NCBI RefSeq assembly: GCF_009914755.1
Contig: NC_060937.1
DNA length: 64,000 nt
Source: the human T2T-CHM13v2.0 reference genome, Homo sapiens
Direction: 5' to 3' (one strand)
The notes beneath the pieces were generated by a model. That model was not told the DNA's origin, searched no databases, and worked only from the letters and a program-made list of their open reading frames with translations. The position numbers were made by a program, and so were the translations under genes. Below are positions 5,098-58,200 of this stretch, one piece after another; the first letter of the stretch is position 1; every line of letters begins with the position of its first letter.

Positions 5098-8000
5098 CAG
5101 AACCTTCTCTTAATTCCTTGCAAACACAGAGGAAAATGTCAAGTGAATACAAAAGGAGTATTTTATTTTTTATATTGTCTGAAAGGAATGTTGCCAAGTT
5201 TGACGATTCAAATTGTTGTTCAAACTCTACTTTGAACAACAATTTACATTTAAACTCAGATTTACTAAGTACTGTCAACTATGGCAAATCTACGTGAATG
5301 GCCCAGTTATATTTCTTTGGAGTTAGATGATTTTCTTCCTAAATAACCTAGAAATATTTATATTTGTATTCTCCACCTCCTTGTTTTTTGGAGAGAGTAC
5401 ATTGAGTCTAGAAGATAAGTGAAGATTCTTTTCATCGACATTACATAGATGTAGTAAGATGTGTCTGACAAAAAGGAGGCAAAATGATATTTTAATTTTA
5501 AAAATGTAAGCATTTCATGGCAAACAAAAATACAAAAATATTCAGAATGCAGAAAGAAGTATAACATTGAATTTGACAATTGATTGTCTGGCAAATTGAA
5601 AATTATAAAAGGAAAAGCAATTAATAGAAAATCATAAAGGTCAAGCTTTATGAATTTTAATTCAATAAGATAAAAATGGAAAGCTCCTGTACAGCCTCAG
5701 TGCATAGTTAAAGGTGGGGGCTGGTCATTACATAAACACCTAGGAGAATTGTTTTGGCTTTGTTTCTAAGAATAAATCATGCAAGAACAAACCAGAAAAC
5801 AGCTGTATCACGTATCACTTATTTAGTTTTATTTCTCTCTTACACTTCTTCCCAAGGGTGTTGTATTCCAAACAAAAACAAAATTGAAAGAGAAAAGTAA
5901 GTATGAAAAAAACGAGGGAAGAAATGTGAAAGAAAAGAAAAATGGTAGTGTGGTGTGAAGACATAAATTACATGAAGACATTCTATAGGTGACCTACAGT
6001 GATGTGGCAGATACTGATGCCTCAGATTAAAAGACATTAAAACTTAGTTTGAAAGGACTGCTGAAAATAAAAAAGTAGGACAAAATTGTGAAGCATGTTT
6101 TCTAACAAATTAGATGGAATTGGTAAAATAATACTGTGCACTAAAAGAGATACACAATTAGGAGGATAATCATATAGAGAGCTTTACTCTGAATGTGTTG
6201 GTTTAAAAAATCTTCCTGTCTTTACTATGATCAGGCATGTTAGATTAGAGCTTAATGCTCTAGGAAAGTATAAAATTAGAACTCAGCCAAATGGAGAAAG
6301 CAGAAGAATATAGAGAAGCTAGATGCTAGGGCAGAATGGAAGACAATACAGGTTCTTAAAAATAAAGTTTTAGAATAATGAAATAAATATTTGAATTATG
6401 TTTAAATTAAATATTAATTGGAAGAGAAACTACCTAGAATTGTAGAAATAAAAGCATAGTAAAGAGTCAAAATTTTAATGTACATGGGACTTAAAATTGG
6501 TTAATACTATTTTCTTTCATAATGGGGAGAAAATGATTTTACCTGCTTTTATATTTAATAATAAAACACTTATTAAAAATTGTATCCGTGATCAATAATT
6601 GGACTCCAAACATAATTGGGAACAAAATTTAAGATGGGACAAAAACCCCACAGTGGTCAAGATAAATAATATTTGATAAATATTTTAAATCTCAAAATTA
6701 GTACAAAATATTCATGGTAAACAGAATATCAACACAGACCAGTGTAAATACGTTATTTCTCCCTGGCTCTCACTTTCTTAAATATCACCTCTTTGAGCTC
6801 TATATAGAAAGTTCAGTTGATCTTTGTTGATTTTTACTGTTTGATTTTGTTTTTTTTTTTAATTTAAAAGCAAACTGAGATTGTTTTCTATGAATAATTT
6901 TGACAGGAAAGACTCTAATATCCTTATATTCAGTTTTTGAAAGCACAGAAAATGTGGAATCTGCTTTTTAACGTGATACCTATGCTGAACAATCTTCAGA
7001 AGACTGTTTTATTATCATGTAGTTGATAACACTCAGTCAGTACTGTATTAAATACATTCTGGAAAGAGGTTAGTGCATGGACATACAGGTGGTACACACA
7101 CATGCACAGGTGGGCATGCATATGTAATTCCATTGTTAGAGTATTGCGTATGGCATTTTTTATAATGAATGTCTACATTTTACCAATAATTAATGTCCCA
7201 GTAATAAATGACATAACCTTGTAATTTTCATCATCAAAGAAATTACCACGTTTTGGTAGTAAGATTGATTAAATTTGGTGTTTCTCACTTTTTGCCCTAG
7301 AGAAATGAAATGAAGATATGATCAGTTCTTAAGTTTTACTATTCCTTATGACAAATATTATTGGAATGATATTATATATGTAAGAAAAAAAAGAAATCTA
7401 TGCACAGCAAAGGCAAAGGAAGAACATGGGAATTTTTTTCAATTACATTCCCCATAGACTTGATTAAAATTGGACATTAAATGTTGGTGAAGGGAGATTT
7501 AATTGCTGTTGCTGTGAGTGTTATTAATCCAATATTATAGCAATGCAAATATTTGTCTATCAACATGAGTTCATTTTAATTGAAAAAGACCATAATGAGG
7601 CAGCAGTTCTTTTCTTCAACTGAAAGAGAAAAAAAACTAAAATTAGTATTGTGATGATAATGGTACTGAAAATACCACTCACTGGGATGACATATTTTCT
7701 TTCAATTATTGTTAGTAAAACTGGAGTAATAGTAAGATCCCTTCGTAAAAACAAACCATGGTTTATGTTTCATGTTAATCACTGAATTAAAGAAGTATTT
7801 GTATTGAAATGTAATGTGACTGTTTTTTCCAAGTTACTATAATTGATTAATGCAAACATATGCAATACCATTTGCCACTTTTATATGGATTACTTGAGAG
7901 TCGAATACAGCTACAATTAAGTTATTGACTGGATGATTAAAGAAAACCTAAACTATCAAGTGGTTTTAGTTGACAAGATAAATCTTCAACTAAGATAAAA

Positions 8001-13300: not shown

Positions 13301-15043
13301 TATGATCACATGAGCTTTTCTAAAACCATTTGTTTCCTCTTGTGTAATCATTCTGTAAGCATCAAAGCAGCCATAAGTATCAACCAATGATTGCTCCTCC
13401 CATTCACCACGCCCCACCCTGTCTCACATCTCACTGGTTACATCTGCAGTTCAGTGATCCAGGGAAATAAATGTTGGAAAAGAGCAATGAAATAGTCATG
13501 ATAGTTCCACTTATTGAAAATAGTACTACTTCTCTCTAAATTAAGTGTGTAATTGGCAAGACTTATGTATACTCTCATAGGGATTAGTTTTTATTGATCT
13601 AATTAGGATGAAGCTTGGGAATGACTTGCCAGTCACCCTGATAGAGCAGCAGCTGCACATTATTATTTTCTTCAAACAGAAAATGGCATTAGTGGGTGAA
13701 AATAAAGCATGATATTCCAAACTTATGCTCTGTTACTGAAGGAAGAGTTTGTGAAACCAAATATCATGTTCTGATGGAAAGAGCTGTTCAGGATTTAAAT
13801 TTTACCTTCTTATCAATAAGATGGGAAAAGAGGTTTCTGCATTTTATTTTCGATGGCAAGTATCATTGCACTGTTAGTGAAAGCTATATACATTTGCAGG
13901 AGACATTGTAAAATACATATAATTGTAAATCAGCCTTAAATAACTCAATTTTACCTGAAAAGACAGGTTCCTTTGCCTTTGTAGTTGATTTTAATATCTC
14001 TTGATTTTTTTTCTTTCATTCCGATCAAAGGTAGCAGAAAGAATTTCTAACAAATGTTTGCCTTCCCATGTACAAGTCAATGTTGTAGATTATCAGCAGG
14101 AATTATACTCCTAAAACAATTAGAAAGAAATGGGCAAAGATGTTTTTTATCTAATGAAATCACTACGCACAGACAATGGGTCTGAACATATTGACCCAGT
14201 TATTAGGCTAGGCCCTGTGAACACATGTGGCCGCATTCACTGATCAAACTCCATTAAGATAGTCTTACTGATTTATCCCTGGGCAATGATGAACATCCAT
14301 GGACACTGAGTCAATATTTTGAAGAAGATTATAGGATAAAGTACTGGCCTTTCGTTTTTAAGATTGCATCAATTTTGAGCCATGATTCAAAGTCTCTAGC
14401 CCTGAATAAGTAGAGCTGAACTCCAAAGTACATCTTGGTACAGTTAAGATGATGAAATTAATTGGCTGAGGTTAAAGTTGTACTCATTTAAACAGAATGC
14501 AAAGAAAATACTCAGCTTGTGAGATCTTTAATGAGGACTTCTGGCATTTGAAAATGTAAAATCCAATATAAACATACATTTGTTTTTTATTATTTTTCAA
14601 AATATATTTCTGCATTTCTATTTCTGACTGATATGAAATTTATTAGCAGTTAATTTGATTAAATGTGAAAGCTGTTATATAACAATGTGCTGATATTATT
14701 TTTCTCTCCATGAAAGTTTCATTTTAATTTATATGCTCAATAACCTTTTTTTCCTTAGGATTGTTGTAAAATTTCTAATATTTGTATGATTTAGATTAAT
14801 ATAAGATCAAGGAAATTATTTTGTTTGTTCCTACTGTAATAGTATAGCTCAATGTTCTCTCTCTCTCTCTCTGTCTCCACATACACACACACGCATGCCT
14901 AAATATATATTGCTTTCTTTCACTTTTATTTCTCAATGTTATTGTGAAATGTGCAATTGAATTATAGAACTTTTTGTTTGAGTCATTTTGTTTTTCTTTC
15001 TTTATTGAGAAATAGTCTTGTTTGTTTATTGAGAAATAATCTT

Positions 15044-15086
15044 GCAGATCAGGAGGTCAGGAGATCGAGACAATCCTGGCTAACAA
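15044..15086 (+). mobile_element. Isolated 43-nt internal AluY fragment (B-box region)
   Basis: gcagatcaggaggtcaggagatcgagacaatcctggctaacaa. 41/43 identical to 16270-16312. No poly(A) tail and no Alu ends. Confidence 0.9.
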
Positions 15087-16214
15087 TCTTGTTTAATCTA
15101 TTGAGAAATAATCAGAACCTATGGTCTGATAGTTCATAAGAGGAAAATGCAAGTCTAAAAGAATACTTATAGCACATTCTGATAAATGAAAATAGTTTCC
15201 AAGTTTCTTTTTATGCCTATGTAAGTGCAAGTCCCCTTTAGAGGGAAGGGGTAATTGAGCGGTTTAGGGAAGAATCAGTAAGAGTTTGTCAGCCAAGAAG
15301 TAGGGAAGGTGACCCAGGACAGAAAAAGTGCAACATCTGAAGTGGGATCGTACAAGGACATGGCCACATTGTGGCTGGTAGTCGAAAAGGGTGATAACTT
15401 CAGTGAGGTATGTGGGGCCTGATCACAGAGGTCTTTCAATGCCTTATTAAGGTGATTGAATTATACTCAGAAAACAATGCACAATAGCTGAGGTCTTTTA
15501 ATCAATGAAAGGACATATTCAGGTTTATTTTAGGGACAATAAACTTGTCAGCAACATGTGCAGCAGACAAAATCTAGGGAGCCTGGCAGCCTGGAAGACC
15601 GTTGAGGAGGTTGTAAAAATAGTGCAGGCAAGAGATGGGGAAACTACAGTATTTCTCTAGCTTTAAGGAAAGATTATGATGATAAATTGGAGAGATCAAA
15701 TTCGGATACGTGTGTTTGTAATAAATAGATTTTGGTAATAAATCTAAATTTAGAAGGGAGGGAGAATAGCTGGGTGATGAGGACATAAAGTGACAATGGA
15801 AATGTGTGATAAATACCAGGTCTCATGGAGGAGGAAAGGAAAATACAGTGGATTAGTGTAATTACATGAGTGCTGGCTGGGCAGCCAAGGGTCGAGGTCC
15901 AGGACTGGCTCTCAGGAGAGATGCTTCAGGGGGACTAGAACTGAAGGAGGGCAGTCGTCAGAATGTAGAATGGGAGTGGAAATTCTCAGAACAATTGTTA
16001 TCCTGAGACAGTGGTACCACATATGGAAGAGCAGAGCTGAGAACCCGGGTGGGCACACTGTTCAAGGCCAGGGAAAGAAAGCAGACCAACTCAAAAGTCC
16101 GAAGTGTGCTAGAAATGGAACCAAGAGAATGGTGCAGTGTAATCTCCGAACGAAGGAAACTCCAGGGGAACAGAGGCTTTCAGCTTTCAGGAATAATGTA
16201 AAAAATAAAAATTG

Positions 16215-16848
<634 letters not shown>

Positions 16849-30231: not shown

Positions 30232-30571
<340 letters not shown>

Positions 30572-33824: not shown

Positions 33825-34173
33825 GGGTATCTACTAATCACCCAGAGAAAACATTTTACTTAATGCTAAGATGTTAATTGATTTCTCCTTGACATACCAA
33901 TTATATACAATATTGTGCACAATTACATAATACTAGACTGAGACTATACTAGACTGAGACTAGACTGAGACTAGACTAGACTGAGACTGGGTATCTACTA
34001 ATCACCCAGAGAAACATTATACTTAATGATATCATTATCTTAATGATCAAATGTTAATTGATTTCTCCTTGATGTACCAATTATATGCAATATTGTACAC
34101 GACTATATTATACTAGACTGAGACATAGGACAGGAATAGTAGACTGAGAAATACAAGACTGAGACATAGGACA
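33825..34173. repeat. ~120-bp tandem duplication with (CTAGACTGAGA)-type micro-repeats
   Basis: Copies at 33825-33944 and 33989-34124 both begin gggtatctactaatcacccagagaaa and end atactagactgagac. Confidence 0.95.
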
Positions 34174-47340: not shown

Positions 47341-47651
47341 TATTTTTATTTTTTTTTTTTTTGAGACGGAGTCTCACTCTGTCGGCCAGGCTGGAGTGCA
47401 GTAGTAAGATCTCAGCTCACTGCAAGCTCTGCCTTCTTGGTTCACGCCATTCTCCTGCCTCAGCCTCCTGAGTAGCTGGGACTACAGGCGCCCACCACCA
47501 TGCCCGGCTAATTATTATTATCATTATTTTTTTAGTAGAGATGGGGTTTCACCGTGTTAGCCAGGATGGTCTCGATCTCCTAACCTCGTGATCCGCCCGC
47601 CTTAGCCTCCCAAAGTACTGGGATTACAGGCGTGAGCCACCACGCCCGGCC
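47341..47651 (-). mobile_element. AluY, full length, probably inserted in a MIR remnant
   Basis: Antisense AluY diagnostics (ctgcaagctc, ttcacgccattc, gtgttagccaggatggtctcgatc). TSD gcttttctt (47332-47340 / 47653-47661). Linker expanded to (ATT)n. Confidence 0.97.
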
Positions 47652-57900: not shown

Positions 57901-58200
57901 CATCCTCAATTTGTCCATTACTTCAAGTACCACCCTCTGCAATGGCACGCCCTACATAAGACTCAAATTTCACATGTTTACCTGATGTGTTCATTATTTT
58001 CAACTGAATAACAATTGTTGGAACAAAAATCAGTAACCACAATAAACATATGTGTGCATTGCGGCTACTGATTTTTGTTCCAACAATTAGTATTCAGTTG
58101 AAAATAATGAACACATCAGGTAAACATGTGAAATTTGAGTCTTATGTAGGGCATGCCATTGCAGAGGGTGGTACCTGAAGTAATGGACAAATTGACGATG
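57901..58200. repeat. Long inverted repeat: 143-bp arms, 14-nt spacer
   Basis: 57901-58043 is the reverse complement of 58058-58200 with 7 mismatches and no gaps (manual comparison). Confidence 0.97.

What the first reader, a model, noticed from the sequence alone, without database searches (positions are those of the whole stretch)
15001..15113. 43-nt Alu fragment apparently templated from the AluY 1.2 kb downstream, inside a triplicated motif
Seen: 15044-15086 matches 16270-16312 at 41/43 and shares two non-consensus bases with that copy (GATCAgGAGG rather than GATCACGAGG, and CTAACAa rather than CTAACAC; the second overlaps the junction repeat). The AluY at 30232 has neither base. The fragment is bracketed by aatcttg on both sides and sits among three copies of tattgagaaata(a/g)tc (~15003, ~15027, ~15099). 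It has no tail and no Alu ends, so it is not a TPRT product. Inference: a templated insertion from iterative microhomology-primed repair synthesis (Pol theta-type end joining or MMBIR), younger than the AluY.
Basis: partly seen in the sequence, partly recalled or inferred. Interest (0 to 1): 0.7.

Follow-up and report, generated by a model that had tools for sequence, protein, structure and literature searches.

The report
Repair scar copied from neighbouring Alu
On human chromosome 13 a 43-base piece from inside an Alu repeat sits among three copies of a short motif, and it was likely copied from the Alu 1.2 kb away during error-prone DNA repair: a clear but ordinary scar with no known function.

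Summary
15044-15086 matches the AluY at 16270-16312 at 41 of 43 bases, between two AATCTTG copies and among three copies of a 15-nt motif. A local donor is well supported. The neighbour's 40-mer has 9 exact copies genome-wide among 27,946 sites within two mismatches. The shared G is rare (about 1%); the shared terminal A is a common AluYb-type base and may come from the target. Against this, distant Alus match better (42 of 43), and two differences is many for so young-looking a donor. New here: the whole tract parses into direct copies from its right side with 2-4 nt microhomologies at six of seven priming junctions, possibly including a second priming site in the same Alu. The motif also has an exact 12-nt inverted copy 66 nt upstream. 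The short AT-rich repeats resemble Pol theta products. The Alu step (43 nt, 1.2 kb away) falls outside published Pol theta ranges and fits long resection or a replication template switch. Ancestral state and polymorphism could not be tested. This is a new member of a known kind (templated insertion) in an intron of a predicted lncRNA.

The parts
15044..15086 (+). 43-nt internal AluY left-arm piece (about Alu positions 56-98), no tail, no ends
   Evidence: 41 of 43 to 16270-16312; mismatches at 15046 and 15072
15001..15020 (+). Motif copy 1 (20 nt, G variant at 15015)
   Evidence: period-24 tandem pair 14997-15044, 91% matches
15025..15044 (+). Motif copy 2, ending in the left AATCTTG
15085..15098 (+). 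Right AATCTTG and a further AATC; its first two A's overlap the end of the Alu match
15099..15113 (+). Motif copy 3 (15 nt, identical to 15027-15041)
16215..16497 (+). Full-length young-looking AluY, the likely donor; A-rich tail to about 16535 and a target-site duplication of about 15 nt
   Evidence: 3 of 46 CpG positions differ from the sample majority vs 8-19 in most other copies sampled; nearest scored relative 98%
16270..16312 (+). Donor stretch for the fragment, carrying the rare G (16278) and the AluYb-type A (16312)
16432..16438 (+). Possible first priming site in the same Alu: a 7-nt exact match to the left junction 15041-15047, giving a 4-nt microhomology and accounting for the 15046 mismatch
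   Evidence: chance 61 of 2,019 flank trinucleotides (3%), found post hoc
14926..14937 (-). Exact 12-nt inverted copy of the motif core, 66 nt upstream of copy 1 (possible fold-back template or pre-existing hairpin arm)
   Evidence: 10 of 633 test tracts have such a match, 2 of them being this one

Best explanation
The tract 15001-15113 is likely the scar of one germline repair event in which a DNA end was repeatedly primed on short microhomologies, and its 43-nt Alu piece was likely copied from the AluY that lies 1.2 kb downstream in the same orientation. Shown: the matches, the rarity of the neighbour's variant combination, the junction microhomologies under one parse, and the lack of TPRT marks. 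Inferred: the left 3' end copied short AT-rich pieces from just right of the break, jumped once (perhaps twice) to the Alu, made about 40 nt, released, and re-annealed at AA/AATCTTG to finish. Every template in this parse lies to the right in direct orientation, as expected if the right end was resected for more than 1.3 kb. An aborted join at the Alu thus left an insertion instead of a 1.2-kb deletion. Pol theta is the likeliest enzyme for the short repeats (about 0.5); a replication template switch is the main alternative for the long jump.
For: The neighbour's 40-mer has 9 exact sites in 3.12 Gb, 2,966 at up to 1 mismatch and 27,946 at up to 2. The G is kept in 10 of the 91 listed one-mismatch sites, which extrapolates to about 325 sites, about 1.3% of otherwise identical AluY sites. 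Even with all 2,966 as equally good donors, 0.0025 are expected within 1.3 kb of a given point. A rough likelihood ratio for local over random distant donor is about 130-2,000 with proximity counted, under assumed penalties. The G sits on mixed backgrounds: 4 of the 9 exact copies carry a 7-nt insertion and 5 of 9 have T where the fragment has C. The other two AluYs in the window lack both bases. A parse of 15005-15086 into seven direct copies needs only two substitutions, with microhomologies of 2, 2, 2, 2, 4, 4 and 1 nt and a 2-nt final join (4 of 5 nt against the motif). The motif tract is 77% A+T, as for Pol theta insertions (PMC7165422 passages). Multi-piece patchworks are described for Pol theta (PMC12426944 passages).
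Against: Distant Alus match better: 4 of the 7 distant loci examined reach 42 of 43, and 3 of 20 further fetched sites reach 41 of 43. Equally good donors probably number in the low hundreds; this is an estimate, not a count. The terminal A is common (about 9% of near-identical sites) and may be target-derived. Both mismatches lie on the fragment's side although the donor shows little CpG decay. The explanations offered for them are post hoc: second priming site 3% by chance; 3 of 129 single changes would create AATC. The cheapest parses treat only the Alu piece (plus 7 nt) as new and the motif copies as older, so one event is not shown. Pol theta templates peak within 15-20 nt, primary tracts are rarely over 10 nt, and distal templates are under 0.1% of repair.
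Confidence: 0.8

Rival explanations
1. Capture of a distant Alu sequence, as RNA/cDNA or DNA, at a break (non-classical Alu insertion or class 2 templated sequence insertion); the neighbour's shared bases are coincidence.
For: Truncated at both ends, no tail and no L1 endonuclease site, as in non-classical Alu insertions (PMC5402677 passages). Distant copies at chr8, chrX, chr15 and chr7 match 42 of 43. Distant donors including Alu are seen at experimental breaks (PMC5110952 part 1; bioRxiv 2022.09.30.509517 passages).
Against: It needs an AluY within 1.3 kb (about 12% at this window's density) that by chance has the G (about 1.3%) and the A. With over a million Alus (PMC3670932 abstract in listing), some better distant match is expected by chance.
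Confidence: 0.11
2. L1 ORF2p internal priming on an Alu RNA at a staggered break, with AATCTTG as a 7-nt target-site duplication; the motif copies are older.
For: The 7-nt repeat brackets the piece exactly, and among the cheapest parses is a 7-nt duplication plus the Alu piece. Internal priming gives tailless elements with target-site duplications.
Against: Only 2 nt of pairing between the target end and the Alu at the 3' junction, and no endonuclease consensus on either strand. It does not explain the match to the neighbour unless the RNA came from that copy.
Confidence: 0.04
3. RNA-templated repair in cis: the nascent minus-strand lncRNA transcript (LOC105370343), which spans both the site and the AluY, served as the template.
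For: A minus-strand transcript has the polarity needed to template top-strand extension (annotation given with the finding), and it removes the need for 1.3 kb of resection. Transcription-linked insertions are reported.
Against: The lncRNA is only a predicted model and has no paper (0 hits). A resected DNA strand has the same polarity, so the sequence cannot favour RNA.
Confidence: 0.03
4. Remnant of a full Alu inserted here and later trimmed by two deletions, or an assembly artefact.
For: The 7-nt flanking repeat could be an old target-site duplication.
Against: It needs two deletions that each stop exactly at the flanking repeats, and it leaves the match to the neighbour and the triplication unexplained. 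The flanks are single-copy. A second assembly was not available to test for artefact.
Confidence: 0.02

Closest known systems
Pol theta templated insertions (TINS) of theta-mediated end joining (PMC7165422, PMC11541566, PMC12426944; passages read)
   Same: Direct repeats of flanking DNA, AT-rich short tracts, 2-4 nt microhomologies, several rounds giving a patchwork; an inverted (fold-back type) template is also present nearby.
   Different: One template is 1.2 kb away, about 40 nt long and about half G+C; published templates peak within 15-20 nt and primary tracts are rarely over 10 nt.
Serial replication slippage / FoSTeS / MMBIR templated insertions (PMC12469571, PMC5120786, PMC9675761; passages read)
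   Same: Forward and backward jumps at short direct repeats, with copying of a downstream stretch (118 bp in the SPINK1 case; 376 bp from several nearby loci in one complex insertion).
   Different: No large copy-number change is evident here (a deletion at the site cannot be excluded), and most pieces are only 3-13 nt.
Non-classical Alu insertions (Srikanta et al. 2009, not held; seen second-hand in PMC5402677 and PMC8102501 passages)
   Same: Alu fragment truncated at both ends, no poly-A tail, no endonuclease site, probably with co-inserted non-Alu sequence.
   Different: These are ascribed to Alu transcripts patching breaks and lack target-site duplications. Here rare variants point to the neighbouring copy, and a 7-nt repeat brackets the piece.
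Class 2 templated sequence insertion polymorphisms (PMC5110952; first quarter of the text read)
   Same: A short patch of copied sequence at a repair junction.
   Different: Defined by a distant donor and by polymorphism; here the donor is likely local and polymorphism is unknown.

Membership tests
Classical TPRT Alu insertion | Intact 3' end with poly-A tail | tested here: not met
   The match ends at about Alu position 98, with no tail
Classical TPRT Alu insertion | L1 endonuclease site (TTTT/AA type) at the insertion point | tested here: not met
   Neither strand fits at the 7-nt repeat (consensus)
Non-classical Alu insertion | Truncated at both ends, no tail, no endonuclease site | tested here: met
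   definition
Non-classical Alu insertion | No target-site duplication | tested here: inconclusive
   A 7-nt repeat brackets the piece, but it may be a re-copied motif
Non-classical Alu insertion | Deletion at the target site | not testable with these tools
   No outgroup; no paralogue of the flanks found
Non-classical Alu insertion | Alu transcript as the template | tested here: inconclusive
   Variant counts favour the neighbouring copy; DNA versus RNA of that copy cannot be told from sequence
Pol theta templated insertion (TINS) | Inserted tracts repeat flanking DNA, direct or inverted, and are AT-rich | tested here: met
   Three direct copies, one inverted copy, 77% A+T
Pol theta templated insertion (TINS) | Short microhomologies at priming and resolving junctions | tested here: inconclusive
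   2-4 nt at six of seven priming junctions in one parse, but the parse assumes an ancestral site that was not seen
Pol theta templated insertion (TINS) | Template within about 15-20 nt of the end; tract rarely over 10 nt | tested here: not met
   The Alu step is 39-43 nt from 1.2 kb away; roughly met only for the 3-13 nt motif pieces
Pol theta templated insertion (TINS) | Dependence on POLQ | not testable with these tools
   Needs a knockout assay
Serial replication slippage / MMBIR templated insertion | Serial forward and backward template switches at short direct repeats, up to kb distance | tested here: met
   A jump to 16270 and a return to 15085 with 1-4 nt and 2 nt repeats; description
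Serial replication slippage / MMBIR templated insertion | Origin at a replication fork | not testable with these tools
   Cannot be read from one sequence
Class 2 templated sequence insertion polymorphism | Distant donor | tested here: not met
   A local donor is favoured roughly 130-2,000 to 1 under stated assumptions; not excluded outright
Class 2 templated sequence insertion polymorphism | Polymorphic in humans | not testable with these tools
   No population data at hand

The most novel reading that the evidence does not exclude
A sizeable share of tailless internal Alu fragments, filed as RNA-derived non-classical insertions, are DNA copies of an Alu a few kb away, made when a long-resected end primes far from the break. 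Rare Alu variants then act as barcodes that name the donor, order the events and measure how far germline end-joining reaches. This locus would be a type example, with two separate primings in one donor.
Probability: 0.25. Interest if true: 0.55.

Novelty: new member of a known kind. Interest (0 to 1): 0.27.

Why it matters
As one locus it matters little: it lies in an intron of a predicted lncRNA, with no annotated element and no evidence of function. Its value is as a readable record of germline repair. The donor can be named by rare variants, and its distance (1.2 kb) is far beyond the 15-20 nt usual for Pol theta templates, so it bears on how far a broken end searches. It also suggests a cheap genome-wide test of whether tailless Alu fragments come from RNA or from neighbouring DNA.

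Tried and rejected
Paralogues of the flanks, to recover the pre-insertion site: none found. 14300-15043 gave itself plus five simple-repeat hits, and 15087-16190 gave only itself; the search skips very common words, so old repeats could be missed. Ape data: the held genomes include no relative, and the variant tables of the ape genome paper (PMC12058530) were too large to read, so they may hold the answer unseen. The great-ape SV paper and both Srikanta 2009 papers were not held, nor two Pol theta reviews. The G as a common subfamily base: rejected. It is about 1% and sits on mixed backgrounds, though two close relatives share it with one further change and may be a small subfamily. Fixing the ancestral allele by minimal parsing: not decisive, since the cheapest parses simply treat the motif copies as old. 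Classical TPRT: rejected. An exact count of sites matching the 43-nt fragment at 41 or better was not made; it is bounded. No paper on this locus or on neighbour-templated Alu fragments surfaced in ten searches; most subscription papers are outside that library.

Full report
Observation. The stretch 15044-15086 matches 16270-16312 at 41 of 43 bases. The other AluYs in the window match less well: 39 of 43 at 30287 and 38 of 43 at 47596 on the minus strand, and neither has the G or the terminal A. AATCTTG brackets the piece (15038-15044, 15085-15091), and the 15-nt motif starts at 15003, 15027 and 15099. Only 3 of 1,065 overlapping 120-nt windows in the 64 kb hold a triple 14-mer, and the other two belong to one repeat near 34 kb. 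AATC occurs five times in 15038-15113 against 7 times in 2,022 nt of flank. There is no tail and no Alu end, and no L1 endonuclease site on either strand.

Is the neighbour the donor? A whole-genome pattern count of the neighbour's 40-mer (16273-16312) gave 9 exact sites including itself, 2,966 within one mismatch and 27,946 within two. Only the first 100 sites are listed, the one-mismatch ones all from the first 77 Mb of chr1. Of those 91, 81 keep the terminal A and 10 keep the G. Extrapolated, about 2,600 sites carry the A alone and about 325 the G alone. The A is therefore common (the label AluYb is recalled; 4 of the 9 exact copies carry a 7-nt insertion of that type), and it overlaps the junction repeat, so it is weak evidence. 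The G is rare, about 1.3% of otherwise identical sites, and sits on mixed backgrounds. Five of the 9 exact copies have T where the fragment has C, which leaves the neighbour and three distant copies. Even if all 2,966 near-copies were equally good donors, 0.0025 would be expected within 1.3 kb of a given point. A rough likelihood ratio of local over random distant donor is 16-78 on the G alone and about 130-2,000 with proximity, with or without the A, using assumed penalties of 0.2-1 for the two mismatches.

Evidence against the neighbour. BLAST scored 40 of 1,249 candidates. Of the 7 distant loci examined, 4 match at 42 of 43 and 3 at 41. Of 20 one-mismatch sites fetched (all 10 listed G-type, and 10 of the 13 listed with C at the first site; none of the 68 with T), 3 match at 41 of 43. 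Equally good distant donors probably number in the low hundreds, which is an estimate. The neighbour looks young: 3 of 46 CpG positions differ from the sample majority (4 counting the G, which the biased sample made the majority), against 8-19 in most other copies sampled and 2-4 in three copies with the 7-nt-type insertion. Its nearest scored relative is 98% identical (40 of 2,190 candidates scored). Two differences in 43 nt, both on the fragment's side, are more than time alone would readily give.

Junction anatomy. A parser that rebuilds the tract from nearby templates found that the left junction 15041-15047 is an exact 7-nt match to 16432-16438 in the right arm of the same Alu. This would give a 4-nt entry microhomology instead of 1 nt and would account for the mismatch at 15046. 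Its chance level is 61 of 2,019 (3%), it was found post hoc, and the site is shared by most AluYs, so it does not name the donor. The other mismatch, at 15072, creates one more AATC; 3 of 129 possible single changes would do so. With a break after about 15004 and the right end starting at 15085, the 82 nt between parse into seven direct copies from the right: 15101-15113, 15089-15094, 15091-15095, 15101-15113, 15089-15091, 16436-16438 and 16274-16312. The microhomologies are 2, 2, 2, 2, 4, 4 and 1 nt, with two substitutions and a 2-nt final join. This shows compatibility, not history. The cheapest parses take the motif copies as older and only the Alu piece, with or without a 7-nt duplication, as new. 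The motif core also has an exact 12-nt inverted copy at 14926-14937. Ten of 633 test tracts have such a match, two being this one, and the region folds more stably than all but 3 or 4 of 200 base shuffles. It may be a fold-back template or an older hairpin that made the site fragile.

Mechanism. A left 3' end that copies downstream sequence in direct orientation needs the bottom strand of the right side, which resection exposes (established end-joining geometry; PMC7165422 passages). Aborted rounds of synthesis on AT-rich templates with short microhomologies give repeated short copies and multi-piece patchworks (PMC12426944 passages); the motif tract is 77% A+T. The Alu step does not fit the usual range. 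Primary tracts are rarely over 10 nt and distal templates are under 0.1% of repair, and templates peak within 20 bp of junctions (PMC11541566 passages). Longer copies from nearby loci are described under serial slippage or MMBIR (PMC12469571 passages; PMC5120786 passages; PMC9675761 passages; PMC6258378 passages). Template switching with about 1.2% polymerase error is inferred for human germline insertions at meiotic hotspots (PMC7615360 passages), which could account for a mismatch. I commit to iterative microhomology-primed synthesis with the neighbouring AluY as donor (0.8). The enzyme is open: Pol theta about 0.5, a replication switch about 0.3.

Comparison with known kinds. In form it resembles non-classical Alu insertions, which are truncated, tailless and ascribed to Alu RNA patching breaks (PMC5402677 passages; PMC8102501 passages; the primary 2009 paper was not held). 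It is not filed there because the RNA origin is not shown and a 7-nt repeat brackets it. It is not filed as a canonical Pol theta insertion because the distance and length test fails for the Alu step. Class 2 templated sequence insertions have distant donors (PMC5110952, part 1 of 4). Donors near breaks and RNA-DNA hybrids are reported in cells (bioRxiv 10.1101/2022.09.30.509517, abstract, outline and passages). It is a new member of the broad known kind, templated insertion by template switching.

What stays open. The ancestral site, the age relative to the AluY and polymorphism are untested. No paralogue of the flanks was found, no ape genome is held, and the ape paper's tables could not be read. 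The site lies in an intron of predicted lncRNA LOC105370343, which no searched paper names. From recall, the piece includes the Alu B box, but nothing here shows function. Verdict: real, likely correctly read as locally templated, ordinary in kind; interest 0.27.

Noticed in passing
window 57931-58171: A long, near-perfect inverted repeat (arms of about 100 nt, loop of about 30 nt; 93% identity to its own reverse complement) with no other match found in the genome, so not an evident repeat family. It looks like a fold-back inverted duplication.
   Followed up: partly
window 33860-34165: A tandem duplication of about 180 nt, each copy ending in a scrambled run of short AGACT-type units; the only other triple-repeat patchwork in the window.
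   Followed up: partly
window 5210-5245: A perfect 15-bp-arm hairpin with a 6-nt loop.
   Followed up: no
window 15026-15039: The triplicated motif is itself a small hairpin (5-bp stem, GAGA loop) in the DNA fold.
   Followed up: partly
window 47367-47651 (-): A third AluY, more diverged, with extra bases in its middle A-rich region; it lacks both shared variants.
   Followed up: partly
L046 and L047 (chr5:87.32 Mb, chr20:35.91 Mb): The two closest relatives of the donor share its rare G plus one further change in the right arm, possibly a small AluY subfamily.
   Followed up: no
L012 (chr7:68.55 Mb): An Alu with the 7-nt insertion and a 12-nt internal tandem duplication in its left arm.
   Followed up: no
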